Shown here piece after piece: positions 27,208 through 32,008 of a DNA stretch of 64,000 nucleotides; position 1 is the stretch's first letter, and each line of letters starts with the position of its first letter. This stretch comes from a virus. The notes under the pieces were generated by a model that did no database searches, was not told where the DNA came from, and saw only the letters and a program-made list of their open reading frames with translations. The stretch is from IMG/VR virus record IMGVR_UViG_3300027804_000039, positions 64,001-128,000 of that record. One strand, written 5' to 3'. The position numbers were made by a program, and so were the translations under genes.

Positions 27208-29412
27208 TTAGTGAATTGCGGTATAAGAATAAGAAATTGAACTTAGTGATTCGCCGTCTAGTGGATGCTTATATCTTAAGGCAATCGAAGAGGGTACATC
27301 GCTCAATCCATTAATTTCGTCGCCACTCTGATTTAGAATCACAGCAGAGAATTCCAATTTAAGTGCATCTGTTTCGGACAGTCCAGTAACACTATACTCA
27401 TCGGACAATTGGACTACACTAGTGTGAAGCGATGCGCTTTGATCGATGTCGGCAACTAATGAGATTGTTCCGTTTCTAGTGAAACTGTTTGAATCACTTT
27501 TGTATTGGTAATCAATCTTATAACTAACAGACTTACTTGGGCCACCGTTTGCATTCGAAGATACTGGTAAGACAGATAATAAAGTCCAACCAGATGCAAA
27601 ACCAATAGTTAACTGTTTACTAGCATATGATTTATAAGTTACCGATCCTGCCATTTCTGGAACATAGGGAATCATTGTGAGAGAACCAACTGTTGATGCT
27701 CTAATTTTTGGATCATATGTTCCTAACATTGTAATACCAGCAGATGTTGTTAACTGTCTGTATGTTGGAGTTGGATTTACTGAGTCCAAATATGTATTGG
27801 CAATTTTAAAATGCGTACTGTCTACTACTTCTTGAATGTAGTAAGTTGTTCCTGATACTACTCCGCCATACGTACCATTGAATGTAATTGGAGCTCCAAC
27901 TAGTAGTGCTCCAGTTAGTCCGTTAGTTTCAAATGCGTCTGATACTGAACTAGAACTGATCACTTCTATAGTAGTGCTTTCTCCAGGATTAAACACGCCA
28001 TCGATGGTCAAAGTGTTCATTGTATCAAATGGTGCAATGAATGGTGTAACTACGGTAATATTAGTTTCGCCATCGTAGTCTTCTTTTAATGTTCCTTGAA
28101 CGTGAGAAACGTTTTGTCTTATTAAGGAACCTTTAGAAGCAGTTATTGGATAATCAAGTTCTAAGTTTACAGTATATAACTGGCTTACTAAAAACTCTTC
28201 TCTGTCAGATTGGTTATTTTCACTAGAGTTGCCAACTGAGTTGTAAAATACTTGTGGGTATTCTGGAAAATATACACCAGCACCATCGTTACCAACATTC
28301 TCAAGAGTAGAATTAGACACGGCGTTACCTGAACCTCTAATAATTAATACTGCTTGTCTTTTAATATCTTGAAAGTCGCATGTATCGAATAGTGTTTGTC
28401 TTGGACCGTATTGCTCGCCCACTGTTGAACCATCGGCTCCTTCGCCTAGCACAACACCTTGTCGTAAATCTTGAAATTTACAATTTCTAAAAGAGTTTTT
28501 TTGTATGTCTTGTTTTGACCATACACCGTAACTAAAGCCAGAAACTAAAACTCTGTTAAAACGATTGTCGTTACAAGTCACTAAGGATGAAACAGCAGAG
28601 AGACTAATACCTTTGCTGTTTTCGCTATAAGTGCCATTCCAGCTACCTTTGATAATTAAATCTTCAAACAAACTATTTCTTACAGCATCAAGTTGTAGGC
28701 AAGTTTGATTTGATGTTGCTGTGTTAATTGTTAAGTTCTTTATTGTAATAAAACGAGGCTGTGTGTTGTACAATGTACTGGTCAATGTACTTGGATTTCC
28801 AATTACAGAATTGTCGTTTACAAATTGTATAGCTGTTCCTGAACCAGAGTATGAAATGATAGTCTTATTTGATCCCGCACCAATAATGGTTGCATAACTC
28901 GGAATATAAAGAGTTCCTGTAATCTTATAAATTCCTGGACCTAATTCTAAGACTACTCTAGTCTTGACACCGTCTGATGTGTCTGAGGATGACTTAGTAG
29001 CAGAGTTTAAAAATAACTGATCAATAGCTCTTTGTAGTGCTTGGGTATCGTCTGCTGTTCCGTTGGCAATAGTTCCAAAGTCAGTAGCAGTAACTCTGTC
29101 GTCTAGACGTTCTTGTGTACTGCGAGAAACTGGATCGTTAACAGTCGGGCCGGTTTGAATGTCAGGGTCGTTGGATTTGTAAATGTGTTGAATTAGGTTC
29201 AACAAATTTCCCTGAACAGTTAAGTCTCGTTCAGTAAGAATCTTTGTATTTCCAACAGCAGGACTTCCTTCAGATACAGAACCGTTACCTATGTATAGTT
29301 CTTGTGTATCTAAACTCCACGCTAATTCGCCACTGGCTAATTGCGGGAGCCCTGTTCCTGATAATGATCTACCTCTGCGTATTTGAATACGGCTGATTTG
29401 CACAACTGCCAT
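27208..29412 (-). CDS. Virion tail/tailspike-like protein with pectate-lyase-like beta-helix
   Basis: N-terminal QIRRG...LPQLASGELAWSLDTQELYIGNG; VTATDFG..ANGTADDTQALQRAID marks the beta-helix start; late box at 29434-29439. Confidence 0.65.
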   Translation of the reverse strand: MAVVQISRIQIRRGRSLSGTGLPQLASGELAWSLDTQELYIGNGSVSEGSPAVGNTKILTERDLTVQGNLLNLIQHIYKSNDPDIQTGPTVNDPVSRSTQERLDDRVTATDFGTIANGTADDTQALQRAIDQLFLNSATKSSSDTSDGVKTRVVLELGPGIYKITGTLYIPSYATIIGAGSNKTIISYSGSGTAIQFVNDNSVIGNPSTLTSTLYNTQPRFITIKNLTINTATSNQTCLQLDAVRNSLFEDLIIKGSWNGTYSENSKGISLSAVSSLVTCNDNRFNRVLVSGFSYGVWSKQDIQKNSFRNCKFQDLRQGVVLGEGADGSTVGEQYGPRQTLFDTCDFQDIKRQAVLIIRGSGNAVSNSTLENVGNDGAGVYFPEYPQVFYNSVGNSSENNQSDREEFLVSQLYTVNLELDYPITASKGSLIRQNVSHVQGTLKEDYDGETNITVVTPFIAPFDTMNTLTIDGVFNPGESTTIEVISSSSVSDAFETNGLTGALLVGAPITFNGTYGGVVSGTTYYIQEVVDSTHFKIANTYLDSVNPTPTYRQLTTSAGITMLGTYDPKIRASTVGSLTMIPYVPEMAGSVTYKSYASKQLTIGFASGWTLLSVLPVSSNANGGPSKSVSYKIDYQYKSDSNSFTRNGTISLVADIDQSASLHTSVVQLSDEYSVTGLSETDALKLEFSAVILNQSGDEINGLSDVPSSIALRYKHPLDGESLSSISYSYTAIH

Positions 29413-30159: not shown

Positions 30160-30165
30160 GGTGCA

Positions 30166-30194
30166 AGTATATAGTCACTTGCACCATTTGTCAA
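30166..30194 (-). promoter_or_regulatory. sigma70 promoter overlapped by an 11-bp inverted repeat; leaderless transcript
   Basis: TTGACA-17 nt-TATACT-6 nt-ATG; arms ATGGTGCAAGT (30158-30168) and ACTTGCACCAT (30177-30187). Confidence 0.75.
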
Positions 30195-30198
30195 TACA

Positions 30199-30525
30199 TT
30201 ATTTGCCCAGTTTGGTTGCACGTTTAGCCATTTGGCTAACAACGCCAGAGTCTTCTTCTCCGCCTACTTCTGGTTTTTGTTTTGCGTCTTGAGTTTTTAC
30301 AGTTACACCTGCACCGTCAAACTTTACAACAAGATTGTGTAAAACTTGTTGTTCTGGAGGTAGACCTTCTTCCTCTTCCCAACGCTGTGCAAATGCTTCA
30401 TAAGAAATTGGGATGCCCATATTTTGTAGGGCACCCCAAGTCATTGGTGCTTTTGTTTGTTGATTGTTGCCTGCGCTTTGAGCCGTGAATAATGTTCTTA
30501 CTAACGGATCAATAGTTTCAATTAC
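30199..30525 (-). other. Open -1 frame extension of the 30522-31523 gene, reachable via the A9G slippery site at 30525-30534
   Basis: TCA AAA AAA AAG TAA in frame 0; the -1 frame reads VIETIDPLVRTLFTAQSAGNNQQTKAPMTWGALQNMG...KLGK* (108 aa). The internal ATG at 30444 lacks an SD. Confidence 0.65.
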
Positions 30526-31523
30526 TTTTTTTTTGATGCTAACAACATGCCTAGTCTACGACTATACTCAATGCTTTCTCTTTTTTCTCTGCCTACTTCT
30601 GGTGCTGGAGGTGTCATTTCTTCTCCGCCTGGCATGCCGCCTGGTGCTGGAGGAGCTTCTGCTCCAAGTTCATCACCTAATCCTGCTGCTGCTTGATCCA
30701 TTGGACCTGCTGGAGCTCCCATAGTTGATACTTCACCGCCTGATACAATTGAAAGTGCGTTTGATAGGCCTTGACGGCTAGTTTCTAGTGCTGTGTAAAT
30801 TGCTTCTAATGCTGGCTTTACTGCCTCTTGATATGATTGGGCTACATCACTGCCCTGTGTTTCTCTTATAGAGTCTAATAATTCTAATAGCTGTTCAGCT
30901 TTCATTGCCGCTACGTCTTCTAGCCAACCAGTAATACGGTCGACCATATCTTTAGTAGCCATGATAGTTTCGGCTTTGCTTTCTTCGCCTTCCAAAAGCA
31001 TCCAACTTGCTCGGCTTTCATTAATATCGTAACGAATCTTTAGTTCTGCCTTTAGTTCTTCTTTGTCAGCTTCGCCTAACTGAATTCTTTTTAGAGCACT
31101 CTCGATCCAGCTTTCAGGAACAGATTCGCTCATTGCACGTTTACGGATAGTTGCCCAGTATACGTTCTCGCCTTTTTCTTTGCCGTATTGTTTTTTCATA
31201 GACGCCTTCATATCTGACTTGTCTGTTTTCTTCTTAATATCTTTTTCTTTGCTTTTTTCAGCTGGTGTCATTTCGCGTTCTAGAATCTCTTGATTAATGC
31301 AATCTAGCATTAAACGTGTTTTTTGATACTGTGGGCTTTCAAGCACAGAATCAAATGCTTCTGAAAGCTCCATTTGACTTAGTCTAGTGCGAAGCTTGTT
31401 ACGTGCATCTTCAAGTTGCACGTCTGAAAACTGTTCGAAGTTAATGGTATAGCCAAACTTCTTAGCTAGGTTTTCATTTAGTACCTTTGAGGTAATTGGT
31501 TTTTGAAATTCTCTAATTTGCAT
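30522..31523 (-). CDS. Late head-associated protein (possible prohead core/scaffold)
   Basis: TATAAATA at 31550-31557; MQIREF N-terminus; acidic helical body, P/G/A-rich linker, ends SKKK. Confidence 0.55.
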   Translation of the reverse strand: MQIREFQKPITSKVLNENLAKKFGYTINFEQFSDVQLEDARNKLRTRLSQMELSEAFDSVLESPQYQKTRLMLDCINQEILEREMTPAEKSKEKDIKKKTDKSDMKASMKKQYGKEKGENVYWATIRKRAMSESVPESWIESALKRIQLGEADKEELKAELKIRYDINESRASWMLLEGEESKAETIMATKDMVDRITGWLEDVAAMKAEQLLELLDSIRETQGSDVAQSYQEAVKPALEAIYTALETSRQGLSNALSIVSGGEVSTMGAPAGPMDQAAAGLGDELGAEAPPAPGGMPGGEEMTPPAPEVGREKRESIEYSRRLGMLLASKKK

Positions 31524-31552
31524 GATTCTGTCCTAGAAATCTTATTACGTAT

Positions 31553-32008
31553 TTATACGAAACTCCATTTAAACATCCTGGAAATTTCATCCTGGTAGTA
31601 CTGTTTTCGTAAGTTACTCTCTTCTAATCTATTTAACAAAATTAGAAAACGCTCTAATTCTTTTGCAGTCTTGATGTTGTTCTGGAACACTATACTATCT
31701 GTGTAGTTAGCCCAGTAAAGTGTGTCTAAGCGTTTGATTTCTTGAAACTTTTCCAAGTTAACTTGATAGTACGCCTTGGCCGCTAGCAGAGCACATGTTT
31801 TTAAGTAGAATTCTTCTACATACATTTTGTTTCTACGATTGAGTATTGCCCAGTTGCCCTTAGTTGTCTTTTTTACAATGTAATCTTTGTAAGCTATACT
31901 ACCATCGGCCAACACAGTAAGCTGCAGGGTTTTGCCAAATTCTGAAGTAAGATCTTTGGCCAGCTCTTTTATTCTAATAGTGGGCGTTTTACGAGTTGAT
32001 TTTTTCAT
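31553..32008 (-). CDS. Hypothetical protein
   Basis: 151 aa ORF in operon. Confidence 0.6.
   Translation of the reverse strand: MKKSTRKTPTIRIKELAKDLTSEFGKTLQLTVLADGSIAYKDYIVKKTTKGNWAILNRRNKMYVEEFYLKTCALLAAKAYYQVNLEKFQEIKRLDTLYWANYTDSIVFQNNIKTAKELERFLILLNRLEESNLRKQYYQDEISRMFKWSFV

What the first reader, a model, noticed from the sequence alone, without database searches (positions are those of the whole stretch)
30199..31557. Candidate programmed -1 frameshift at the end of a late head-associated protein (site 2)
The gene ends GCA TCA AAA AAA AAG TAA (A9G at 30525-30534), the same TCAAAAAAAAAG context as site 1. The -1 frame continues for 108 codons (VIETIDPLVRTLF...MTWGALQNMG...KLGK), and its internal ATG lacks an SD. 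The stop immediately after the heptamer is a typical frameshift-promoting arrangement. Predicted products are 333 aa and about 441 aa at a fixed ratio, reminiscent of the tail-chaperone G/GT frameshift but here in a probable head or scaffold protein. These are the only two T9/A9 runs I noticed in the window.
Basis: partly seen in the sequence, partly recalled or inferred. Interest (0 to 1): 0.8.

Follow-up and report, generated by a model that had tools for sequence, protein, structure and literature searches.

The report
Conserved A9 frame-slip, jumbo-phage late gene
A late gene of an uncultured giant lake phage makes a short (333 aa) and a long (441 aa) protein by slipping back one base on a run of nine A's, and over a hundred related phage sequences keep the same device, so it is real programmed recoding of a familiar kind in a protein family where I found none described.

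Summary
Observation confirmed. The minus-strand gene 30522-31523 (333 aa) ends TCA AAA AAA AAG TAA, and the -1 frame runs on for 108 codons.

All 80 related IMG/VR loci (57 distinct) keep C-A9-(G/A/C)-TAA and an open -1 frame of 104-121 codons. That frame evolves as coding sequence and has no conserved start codon. A more distant set keeps A8-A10 runs in 44 of 65 loci, with the stop 0-6 codons away. Six loci have only the A_AAA_AAG heptamer. Others encode the same domain as a separate gene. One lineage has it in frame but still keeps A9, with stops in both other frames, as in Thermus dnaX.

These two runs are the only A/T runs of 9 or more in the 191-kb contig. The other is site 1, which this scan has already followed up.

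The slip mechanism is unresolved:
- **RNA polymerase stuttering (about 50%):** run length of 9 or more is selected, the phage carries both tRNA-Lys genes, and the stop position is movable.
- **Ribosomal -1 frameshifting (about 40%):** the phase fits A_AAA_AAG, heptamer-only relatives exist, and a covarying 3' hairpin is present in most relatives but weak in this window.

A head or scaffold role is unproven. This is a new member of a known kind.

The parts
30522..31523 (-). Zero-frame ORF, 333 aa (P0001). It is all-helical, with long helices at 151-260, a disordered Pro/Gly/Ala linker at 264-307 and a conserved basic C-terminal helix ending SKKK*.
   Evidence: The family has 4179 homologues, and 116 of the best 120 end in KKK.
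30525..30535 (-). Slip site C-A9-G, read TC[A AAA AAA AAG]. It holds two in-phase heptamers, A_AAA_AAA and A_AAA_AAG.
   Evidence: Kept as A9G (43 loci), A10/A11 (10) or A9C (4) in 57 of 57 distinct loci. Lys codons inside the run are never AAG, whereas seven other conserved Lys columns use AAG in 17-50% of sequences.
30522..30524 (-). Zero-frame stop TAA, directly after the run.
   Evidence: It is TAA and adjacent in all 80 close loci. In P0053 and P0119 it is displaced by one codon. In the distant set it lies 0-6 codons away and is TAA, TAG or TGA.
30199..30525 (-). Extension in the -1 frame: 108 codons plus stop. It forms a compact alpha/beta domain (residues 5-80), a disordered linker and a C-terminal basic helix. 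The long product is 441 aa.
   Evidence: Codon-position entropy is 1.08/0.87/1.49 across 57 loci. No conserved start codon. AlphaFold model with pLDDT about 90 over residues 10-80. Homologous to free-standing ORFs in distant phages.
30479..30511 (-). Weak 3' hairpin, -8.5 kcal/mol, starting 13 nt after the heptamer. It is the local, degenerate form of a covarying 14-bp hairpin over the D-P-L-V...T-L-R codons in most relatives.
   Evidence: Covariation was counted on the codon-anchored alignment A6. Mean MFE dips just after the run.
31550..31557 (-). TATAAATA box (T4 late-promoter-like), 34 nt before the ATG, overlapping the stop of the upstream 151-aa gene. AGGA ribosome-binding site at 31531-31534.
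   Evidence: Present at -33 to -38 in 50 of 53 related loci. Not enriched genome-wide, so it is a candidate only.
30166..30194 (-). Sigma-70-like promoter (TTGACA-17-TATACT, 11 of 12 matches) directly after the extension's stop. It serves the downstream exonuclease gene and marks the 3' limit of the recoded unit.
   Evidence: TTGACA...TATAxT recurs at this position in most related loci.

Best explanation
**What is shown.** One late gene gives two proteins. Standard decoding stops at TAA and yields a 333-aa helical protein. A one-base backward shift on the C-A9-G tract moves decoding into the -1 frame and adds a 108-residue domain, giving 441 aa (...SKKK-VIETIDPLV...).

**What I infer.** I think the shift arises mainly during transcription. 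RNA polymerase stutters on the nine-T template tract and makes some mRNAs with ten A's, which ordinary translation reads straight through. mRNAs with A8 or A11 hit a +1-frame stop within two codons and give a near-copy of the short form, so only two functional classes arise. Ribosomal -1 slippage on A_AAA_AAG, with UAA next in the A site, probably adds to the long form. The site of slippage and the ratio of the two products are inferred, not shown.
For: **Recoding itself**
- The run, the frame relation and an open -1 ORF of 104-121 codons are kept in 80 of 80 close loci and in 44 of 65 distant loci.
- The extension evolves as coding sequence and folds confidently.
- No conserved in-frame start exists, and no start lies in the -1 frame upstream of the run.
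- Distant clades encode the same domain as a separate ORF with an ATGA stop/start overlap.
- The database search with the extension found one fused form (P0080, an A10 contig); the profile search added two in-frame forms, P0154 and P0177.

**Polymerase slippage as the main route**
- The length of 9 or more is selected beyond the heptamer. TCA precedes the run in 55 of 57 loci, against 18% TCA usage among Ser codons genome-wide. Lys codons in the run are 100% AAA, against 50-83% at other conserved Lys columns.
- The tenth base varies among G, A and C.
- Stop position and identity vary in relatives while A9 stays.
- Site 1 has the same dodecamer and no adjacent stop.
- Eleven other in-frame A_AAA_AAG heptamers sit in ORFs of this contig, but there is no other run of 9 or more.
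- One lineage has the extension in frame yet keeps A9, with stops in both other frames within two codons. This is the Thermus dnaX layout.
- The phage encodes tRNA-Lys(UUU) and tRNA-Lys(CUU). The review PMC5009743 links two Lys tRNAs to the use of polymerase slippage in Thermus, and states that bacterial RNA polymerase slips efficiently on 9 A/T.
- The window's own subclade has largely lost the 3' hairpin but keeps A9G-TAA.
Against: - The run is in the A_AAA_AAG phase in nearly all loci, and G is the commonest tenth base (81 of 101 A8-or-longer runs over the two sets).
- Six distant loci carry only the A6G heptamer with a stop 0-1 codon away. Polymerase slippage should be poor there.
- A 14-bp hairpin 3' of the site covaries, and RNA made after the run cannot influence polymerase slippage on the run.
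- No transcript or protein data exist.
- Which polymerase transcribes the gene is unknown. The contig is about 50% complete by CheckV, and the late-promoter assignment is only a conserved TATAAATA box.
Confidence: 0.5

Rival explanations
1. Same recoding and same two products, but the slip is chiefly ribosomal. It would be tandem -1 slippage of the Lys tRNAs on A_AAA_AAG (or A_AAA_AAA), helped by slow termination at the adjacent UAA ('shifty stop') and by a 3' hairpin. The extra A's would only add a second heptamer.
For: - The canonical bacterial heptamer is in the right phase in almost every locus.
- G is preferred at the tenth base.
- The stop is adjacent in all 80 close loci.
- Six relatives have a bare A6G heptamer plus a nearby stop.
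- A hairpin downstream covaries: 75.8% of cells paired against 69.7% in shuffles, 39 double-change cells against 12 (0 of 500 shuffles reach either), and slid controls at 45% or less.
- There is a local MFE minimum right after the run in both sets.
- Many distant loci have hairpins 0-8 nt after the site.
Against: - The hairpin starts 8-17 nt after the heptamer, and 22-25 nt where codons were inserted. That spacing is longer and less fixed than the usual 5-9 nt.
- The hairpin is weak or lost in the window's own subclade.
- Weaker hairpins also occur near the same codons in relatives with separate genes.
- There is no upstream SD-like stimulator.
- The phage has its own tRNA-Lys(CUU), which should hold AAG firmly.
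- A9C and A10 variants, and displaced stops, are tolerated.
- Selection for 9 A's goes beyond what a heptamer needs.
Confidence: 0.4
2. DNA-level phase variation. Replication slippage would make A9 and A10 genomes, so the two proteins would come from different phage genomes rather than from one template.
For: One fused form, P0080, is a real A10 contig seen in two samples. P0177 has A11 in frame. Homopolymer tracts are classic contingency loci (general knowledge).
Against: All but two of the 101 A8-or-longer recoding loci examined, from many samples, carry the out-of-frame arrangement as the consensus. A mutational switch cannot supply both forms in a set ratio within one infected cell. The P0154 lineage fixes the in-frame state yet keeps A9.
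Confidence: 0.03
3. No recoding. The downstream frame would be translated on its own (internal ATG at codon 28, or reinitiation after the stop), or it would be a decaying remnant or an assembly error.
For: Gene callers list 74-85-aa ORFs starting from internal ATGs. Distant relatives do express the domain separately.
Against: - The first in-frame start ranges from codon 1 to codon 107 among loci and is never conserved.
- The most conserved segment (E..DPLV..L) and the first helix of the fold lie upstream of the window's ATG.
- Purifying selection acts over the whole frame.
- 80 independent assemblies agree.
Confidence: 0.04

Closest known systems
Thermus thermophilus dnaX (tau/gamma by transcriptional slippage on a run of nine A/T; review PMC5009743)
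   Same: A run of nine A's in the coding strand, nearby stops in the alternative frames, two products sharing an N-terminus, and an organism with two Lys tRNAs. The P0154 lineage of this family has exactly the dnaX-Thermus layout, with the long form in frame and the short forms made by slippage.
   Different: In the window the short form is the zero-frame product and the long one needs the slip. The gene is a phage late gene of unknown function, not a replication clamp-loader. Slippage has not been demonstrated.
E. coli dnaX and IS3-family orfA-orfB -1 ribosomal frameshift cassettes (A_AAA_AAG)
   Same: The identical heptamer in the identical phase, a 3' stem-loop, and a fixed-ratio pair of products.
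   Different: There is no 5' SD-like element. The hairpin spacer is mostly 8-17 nt instead of about 6. The run is extended to nine A's under selection. A stop codon sits directly after the heptamer.
Phage T7 gene 10A/10B and Listeria phage PSA cps/tsh (C-terminally extended virion proteins made by frameshifting; from my own knowledge)
   Same: A late phage gene makes a minor C-terminally extended isoform by a frameshift close to its stop codon.
   Different: Those are identified capsid or tail proteins with other slip sites. Here the protein is only weakly linked to virions (PHROG 14154), and the extension is a whole folded domain that is a separate gene in relatives.
Lambda G/GT tail assembly chaperone frameshift
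   Same: A conserved -1 shift near the end of a small late gene gives a fusion at a set ratio, and it is widely conserved among phages.
   Different: The gene does not lie between tail tube and tape measure genes. The slip site (G_GGA_AAG in lambda, from my own knowledge) and the protein family are unrelated.
Site 1 of the same contig
   Same: The same dodecamer TCAAAAAAAAAG in the same phase, with a -1 extension. These are the only two runs of 9 or more A/T in the contig.
   Different: It lies in a membrane-protein gene, and the zero-frame stop is 18 codons downstream rather than adjacent.

Membership tests
Programmed -1 ribosomal frameshift cassette (bacterial/phage type) | X_XXY_YYZ slippery heptamer in the zero-frame phase | tested here: met
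   A_AAA_AAG (and A_AAA_AAA) is in phase. The phase is kept in nearly all loci.
Programmed -1 ribosomal frameshift cassette (bacterial/phage type) | Overlapping -1 ORF that is conserved, coding and without its own start | tested here: met
Programmed -1 ribosomal frameshift cassette (bacterial/phage type) | 3' stimulatory RNA structure about 5-9 nt after the heptamer | tested here: inconclusive
   A covarying 14-bp hairpin is present in most relatives, but it starts 8-17 nt or more after the site and moves with codon insertions. In the window it is only -8.5 kcal/mol at 13 nt.
Programmed -1 ribosomal frameshift cassette (bacterial/phage type) | 5' Shine-Dalgarno-like stimulator (dnaX/IS type; optional) | tested here: not met
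   Only an AGG 18 nt upstream, inside Leu-Gly codons, and it is not conserved. The region from -50 to -20 is the least structured part.
Programmed -1 ribosomal frameshift cassette (bacterial/phage type) | Transframe protein made from unedited mRNA | not testable with these tools
   This needs protein and RNA data.
Programmed transcriptional slippage (Thermus dnaX, Shigella spa13, IS elements) | Homopolymeric A/T run of about 9 or more, conserved in length | tested here: met
   A9-A11 in 57 of 57 close loci and A9-A10 in 43 of 50 recoding distant loci. Synonymous positions are fixed to A.
Programmed transcriptional slippage (Thermus dnaX, Shigella spa13, IS elements) | Alternative frames arranged so that all slip classes give defined products (nearby stops) | tested here: met
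   The +1 frame closes within 1-5 codons in all 57 loci. The in-frame lineage has stops in both other frames within 2 codons.
Programmed transcriptional slippage (Thermus dnaX, Shigella spa13, IS elements) | mRNA population heterogeneous in run length while the DNA is uniform | not testable with these tools
   No read-level RNA data. One A10 contig (P0080) is of unknown library type.
Phage head scaffolding protein | Encoded in the head module next to portal, protease or major capsid genes, or homologous to a known scaffold | tested here: not met
   The neighbours are an exonuclease, RNR and a beta-helix protein. There is no Pfam or PHROG scaffold hit; the only match is PHROG 14154 'virion structural protein' at E about 1e-9. 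The contig is only about half the genome.
Tail assembly chaperone G/GT | Position between tail tube and tape-measure genes; chaperone family domains | tested here: not met
   No such neighbours or domains.
Winged-helix domain (for the 108-aa extension) | Significant structural match to winged-helix folds | tested here: inconclusive
   The top hits are winged-helix domains but weak: Foldseek E of 0.85 or more, VIA Z of 4.2 or less.

The most novel reading that the evidence does not exclude
The A9G tract may be a dual-level recoding device, used by both RNA polymerase and the ribosome and tuned by a covarying 3' hairpin. It would have been maintained across a very large superfamily of uncultured jumbo phages: 1552 clusters at 50% identity match the upstream protein.

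The family has moved among four layouts for the same two modules:
- separate genes coupled by an ATGA overlap;
- a bare heptamer plus a stop;
- an A9 run with a movable stop;
- an in-frame fusion in which A9 makes the short form.

That would give a natural series for studying how ribosomal frameshifting and transcriptional slippage replace each other.
Probability: 0.3. Interest if true: 0.7.

Novelty: new member of a known kind. Interest (0 to 1): 0.55.

Why it matters
Databases annotate this locus as a 333-aa protein plus a truncated ORF of 74-85 aa. The real long product, and the fact that a whole domain is reachable only by slippage, are therefore missed in thousands of metagenomic phage sequences.

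The family is abundant. It is conserved deeply enough to show the same two modules under four different expression layouts. That makes it a useful comparative system for the old question of when a genome uses ribosomal frameshifting and when it uses polymerase slippage.

With site 1, the phage has two identical slip sites and no other long A/T run. This suggests the tract acts as a deliberately reserved signal. It does not reveal a new principle of decoding.

Tried and rejected
- **First structure test gave a wrong negative.** RNAalifold on a MAFFT alignment of the site ±100 nt gave essentially no consensus structure, and the window fold had z = -1.3. I first read this as 'no 3' structure'. 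A sliding-MFE profile, a per-locus hairpin search and a codon-anchored alignment showed that this was an alignment artefact.
- **Function searches led nowhere.**
  - Pfam found nothing for either part.
  - blastn and tblastn against cultured phages gave no match for the window's protein.
  - A distant relative hit only a hypothetical protein of Sinorhizobium phage Phosso.
  - The ESM Atlas gave only unnamed viral clusters and a sub-threshold DUF3008 lead.
  - Fold searches of the extension gave only weak winged-helix-like rows.
  - Cluster names were all 'hypothetical'.
- **Joint alignment failed.** An alignment of the fused form with N- and C-terminal fragments misaligned, so the two parts were folded separately.
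- **Profile search for loci failed.** The search for related loci with the extension profile found no conserved stretch to search with.
- **T4 capsid search was uninformative.** A Gp23 search in the contig found nothing, and the control genomes did not ring either.
- **TATAAATA is not enriched in the contig**. The late-promoter call rests only on positional conservation.
- **Run accession not found.** The SRA run that carries the A10 contig is not mentioned in the paper library.
- **Literature search.** Searches for frameshifting or slippage in jumbo phages found no description of this family.
Full report
**1. Observation**

The genes in this part of the window lie on the minus strand. ORF 30522..31523 (-) encodes 333 aa (P0001) and ends GCA TCA AAA AAA AAG TAA. 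The A9 run is at 30526-30534, G at 30525 and TAA at 30524-30522. The -1 frame continues from 30525 for 108 codons (VIETIDPLVRTLF...KLGK) to a stop at 30199-30201. A one-base backward slip would therefore give a protein of 333 + 108 = 441 aa.

The first in-frame ATG of the -1 frame is codon 28, and no ribosome-binding site precedes it. The window holds exactly two A9 runs. The whole contig is 191,095 bp, 40% GC, and about 50% of a genome by CheckV. It holds only these two runs of 9 or more A/T, both as TCA AAA AAA AAG in the same phase. Long runs are depleted overall, with 53 runs of 7, 5 of 8 and 2 of 9.

**2. Is it more than chance or artefact?**

The protein has 4179 database homologues, nearly all 325-340 aa long, from uncultured phage contigs of up to about 370 kb. 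Of the best 120, 116 end in KKK.

I fetched 80 IMG/VR loci at 57-91% amino-acid identity.
- All 80 carry C-A9-(G/A/C)-TAA, or A10/A11-TAA. This covers 57 distinct sequences plus three that my motif filter missed.
- In all of them the -1 frame stays open for 104-121 codons, and the +1 frame closes within 1-5 codons.
- Flanking synonymous sites are saturated, for example TTGTTAGCA against CTACTTAAC.

Within the run the picture is different. The Lys codons are AAA in 100% of sequences, whereas seven other conserved Lys columns of the same gene use AAG in 17-50%. The Ser codon before the run is TCA in 55 of 57 loci, against 18% genomic usage among Ser codons.

The -1 ORF shows the codon-position entropy pattern of a coding sequence, 1.08/0.87/1.49. 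No ATG, GTG or TTG lies in the -1 frame upstream of the slip site in any locus. The first downstream start ranges from codon 1 to codon 107. Independent assemblies from many samples agree, so a homopolymer sequencing error is excluded.

**3. The wider family**

A profile search found 1552 clusters at 50% identity. Many distant members still end in KKK or KK plus one residue. Others end ...LAG...LVGR or ...KLAK.

A second set of 65 distinct loci, 37-57% identical to a distant member, was examined.
- 44 have A8-A10 runs followed by a -1 ORF of 98-132 codons. In these the zero-frame stop is TAA, TAG or TGA and lies 0 to 6 codons after the run.
- 6 have only the A_AAA_AAG heptamer (A6G), with a stop 0-1 codon away.
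- About 15 have no run, and a separate downstream gene with its own ATG.

In more distant clades the gene ends in an ATGA stop/start overlap. The downstream ORF in L087, and the second downstream ORF in L088, are homologous to the window's extension (hhalign probability 98%, E = 3e-13 and 4e-14).

One lineage, the P0154 cluster, has seven members from several samples. It has the extension in frame (TCA AAA AAA AAG ATA AGT...) yet keeps A9G, with stops within two codons in both other frames. In that lineage slippage would make the short form, which is the layout of Thermus dnaX. P0080 (A10) and P0177 (A11) are single fused variants. In P0053 and P0119 the stop is displaced by one codon.

The same two modules are therefore expressed in four ways across the family. 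The extension is a real protein module, and in the window's clade it can be reached only by slipping.

**4. RNA context**

My first test suggested no conserved structure. That was wrong, because indels between the run and the DPLV codons had broken the alignment.

A sliding 50-nt MFE profile shows a sharp minimum just after the run. The values are -13.7 and -15.2 kcal/mol at +0 and +10, against -6 to -8 further downstream. A weaker dip appears in the distant set.

Per locus, 49 of 57 close relatives have a hairpin of -8 kcal/mol or stronger, with a mean of -14.1. Many are perfect stems of 12-15 bp formed by the codons for (x)D-P-L-V and T-L-R.

On a codon-anchored, gap-free alignment (A6) the 14-bp helix behaves as follows:
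- 75.8% of cells are paired, against 69.7 ± 0.7% in shuffles (0 of 500 shuffles reach the observed value);
- 39 cells have changes on both sides, against 12 ± 3 (0 of 500);
- slid controls reach at most 45% paired;
- 7 of 14 pairs show compensatory changes. Examples are Val to Ile (G to A) matched by Leu CUA to UUA, and Pro CCC to CCG or CCA matched by AGG to ACG or AUG.

The hairpin is therefore selected at the RNA level. Several facts complicate a role as a frameshift stimulator.
- Its 5' end lies mostly 8-17 nt after the heptamer, and 22-25 nt where four codons were inserted.
- In the window it is weak: 30511-30479, -8.5 kcal/mol, spacer 13 nt.
- It is largely lost in the window's subclade (L003, L004, L007, L009, L014, L028), which nevertheless keeps A9G-TAA.
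- Weaker hairpins occur near the same codons in relatives with separate genes.

There is no upstream hairpin and no conserved SD-like element.

**5. Mechanism**

Both candidate mechanisms give the identical protein, ...SKKK-VIETIDPLV....

*For RNA polymerase slippage:*
- Selection is for 9 or more A's, the length at which bacterial polymerase slips efficiently and roughly the RNA-DNA hybrid length (review PMC5009743).
- The tenth base can be G, A or C.
- The stop is movable in relatives.
- Site 1 has the same dodecamer and no adjacent stop.
- Eleven other in-frame A_AAA_AAG heptamers are tolerated in ORFs of this contig, while no other run of 9 or more exists.
- The in-frame lineage has the dnaX-Thermus layout.
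- The phage encodes both tRNA-Lys(UUU) and tRNA-Lys(CUU). The review gives the two-tRNA situation as the likely reason why Thermus uses polymerase slippage rather than ribosomal frameshifting.

*For ribosomal -1 frameshifting:*
- The phase always fits A_AAA_AAG, the most shift-prone heptamer in E. coli.
- G is preferred at the tenth base.
- The stop is adjacent in all close relatives.
- Heptamer-only relatives exist.
- The 3' hairpin covaries, and a structure made after the run cannot act on the polymerase while it is on the run.

I put polymerase slippage as the main source at about 50%, ribosomal slippage as the main source at about 40%, and consider a contribution from both likely. DNA-level phase variation and 'no recoding' together get well under 10%.

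**6. What the proteins are**

P0001 is predicted to be all-helical. It has long helices at 151-260, a disordered Pro/Gly/Ala linker at 264-307 and a conserved basic C-terminal helix (pLDDT 62). All 40 sampled members match PHROG 14154, 'virion structural protein', weakly (E about 1e-9) over residues 169-267. Pfam finds nothing.

The extension folds into a compact alpha/beta domain (residues 5-80, pLDDT about 90), followed by a disordered linker and a short basic helix. Fold searches give only weak winged-helix-like rows.

A TATAAATA box lies 34 nt before the ATG. It overlaps the upstream gene's stop and is kept at -33 to -38 in 50 of 53 loci, but the octamer is not enriched in the contig. A sigma-70-like promoter (11 of 12 matches) follows the extension's stop and serves the exonuclease gene.

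The synteny (a 150-aa ORF, this gene, a PD-(D/E)XK exonuclease, then an Mtd_N/pectate-lyase protein) is kept even in distant clades. A late, possibly virion-associated protein is plausible. A head or scaffold role is not shown.

**7. Comparison and novelty**

The closest known cases are Thermus dnaX (A9, transcriptional), E. coli dnaX and IS3 elements (A_AAA_AAG, ribosomal), and the C-terminally extended virion proteins of T7 and Listeria phage PSA. The T7 and PSA comparisons rest on my own knowledge.

I found no description of recoding in this protein family or in these jumbo phages. The scan had already followed up the sister site in the same contig (site 1, note e1-5809793), with a concordant conclusion.

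Verdict: real, deeply conserved programmed recoding, and a new member of a known kind. The distinctive interest lies in the family-wide series of alternative layouts and in the unresolved split between polymerase and ribosome.

Noticed in passing
G000:C1:47704-47857 (outside the window, 16 kb before its start): The phage tRNA array (38 genes, plus two more elsewhere on the contig) includes adjacent tRNA-Lys(UUU) and tRNA-Lys(CUU), and also tRNA-Arg(CCU), which reads the AGG codon used in the conserved hairpin arm.
   Followed up: partly
G000:C1:58841-58916 (outside the window): ARAGORN calls a tRNA with anticodon CUA (labelled 'Pyl'), that is, an amber-suppressor-like tRNA, in a genome where TAG is the rarest stop (17 of 227 ORFs).
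   Followed up: no
window 30160-30198 (-): Directly after the extension's stop lies a near-consensus sigma-70 promoter (TTGACA-17-TATACT). Its spacer and -10 region sit inside a perfect 9-bp inverted repeat (GGTGCAAGT...ACTTGCACC) that ends at the exonuclease ATG. The arrangement recurs in many related loci.
   Followed up: partly
L088:2838-3089 and protein P0234: In some distant clades a third, low-complexity module (…TKGTKTVIDK…) sits between the two genes, and in P0234 it is fused in frame to the upstream protein. Modules of this locus are shuffled between separate and fused states.
   Followed up: no
window 27208-29412 (-): A 734-aa protein with an Mtd_N tropism-determinant N-terminus and a pectate-lyase/beta-helix body, probably a fibre or depolymerase. 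It is syntenic with the recoded gene even in distant 380-kb phages (L087).
   Followed up: no
window 30199-30444 (-) and public databases: Gene callers and the ESM Atlas hold the extension only as an 81-aa ORF starting at the internal ATG. The first 27 conserved residues, including the first helix, are missing from public protein sets.
   Followed up: yes
L029, L036, L039, L049 (A10-TAA lineage): In the A10 lineage the downstream hairpin is extended by an outer stem (AUUGA...UCAAU) that starts only 2 nt after the run. Hairpin position therefore differs between run types.
   Followed up: no
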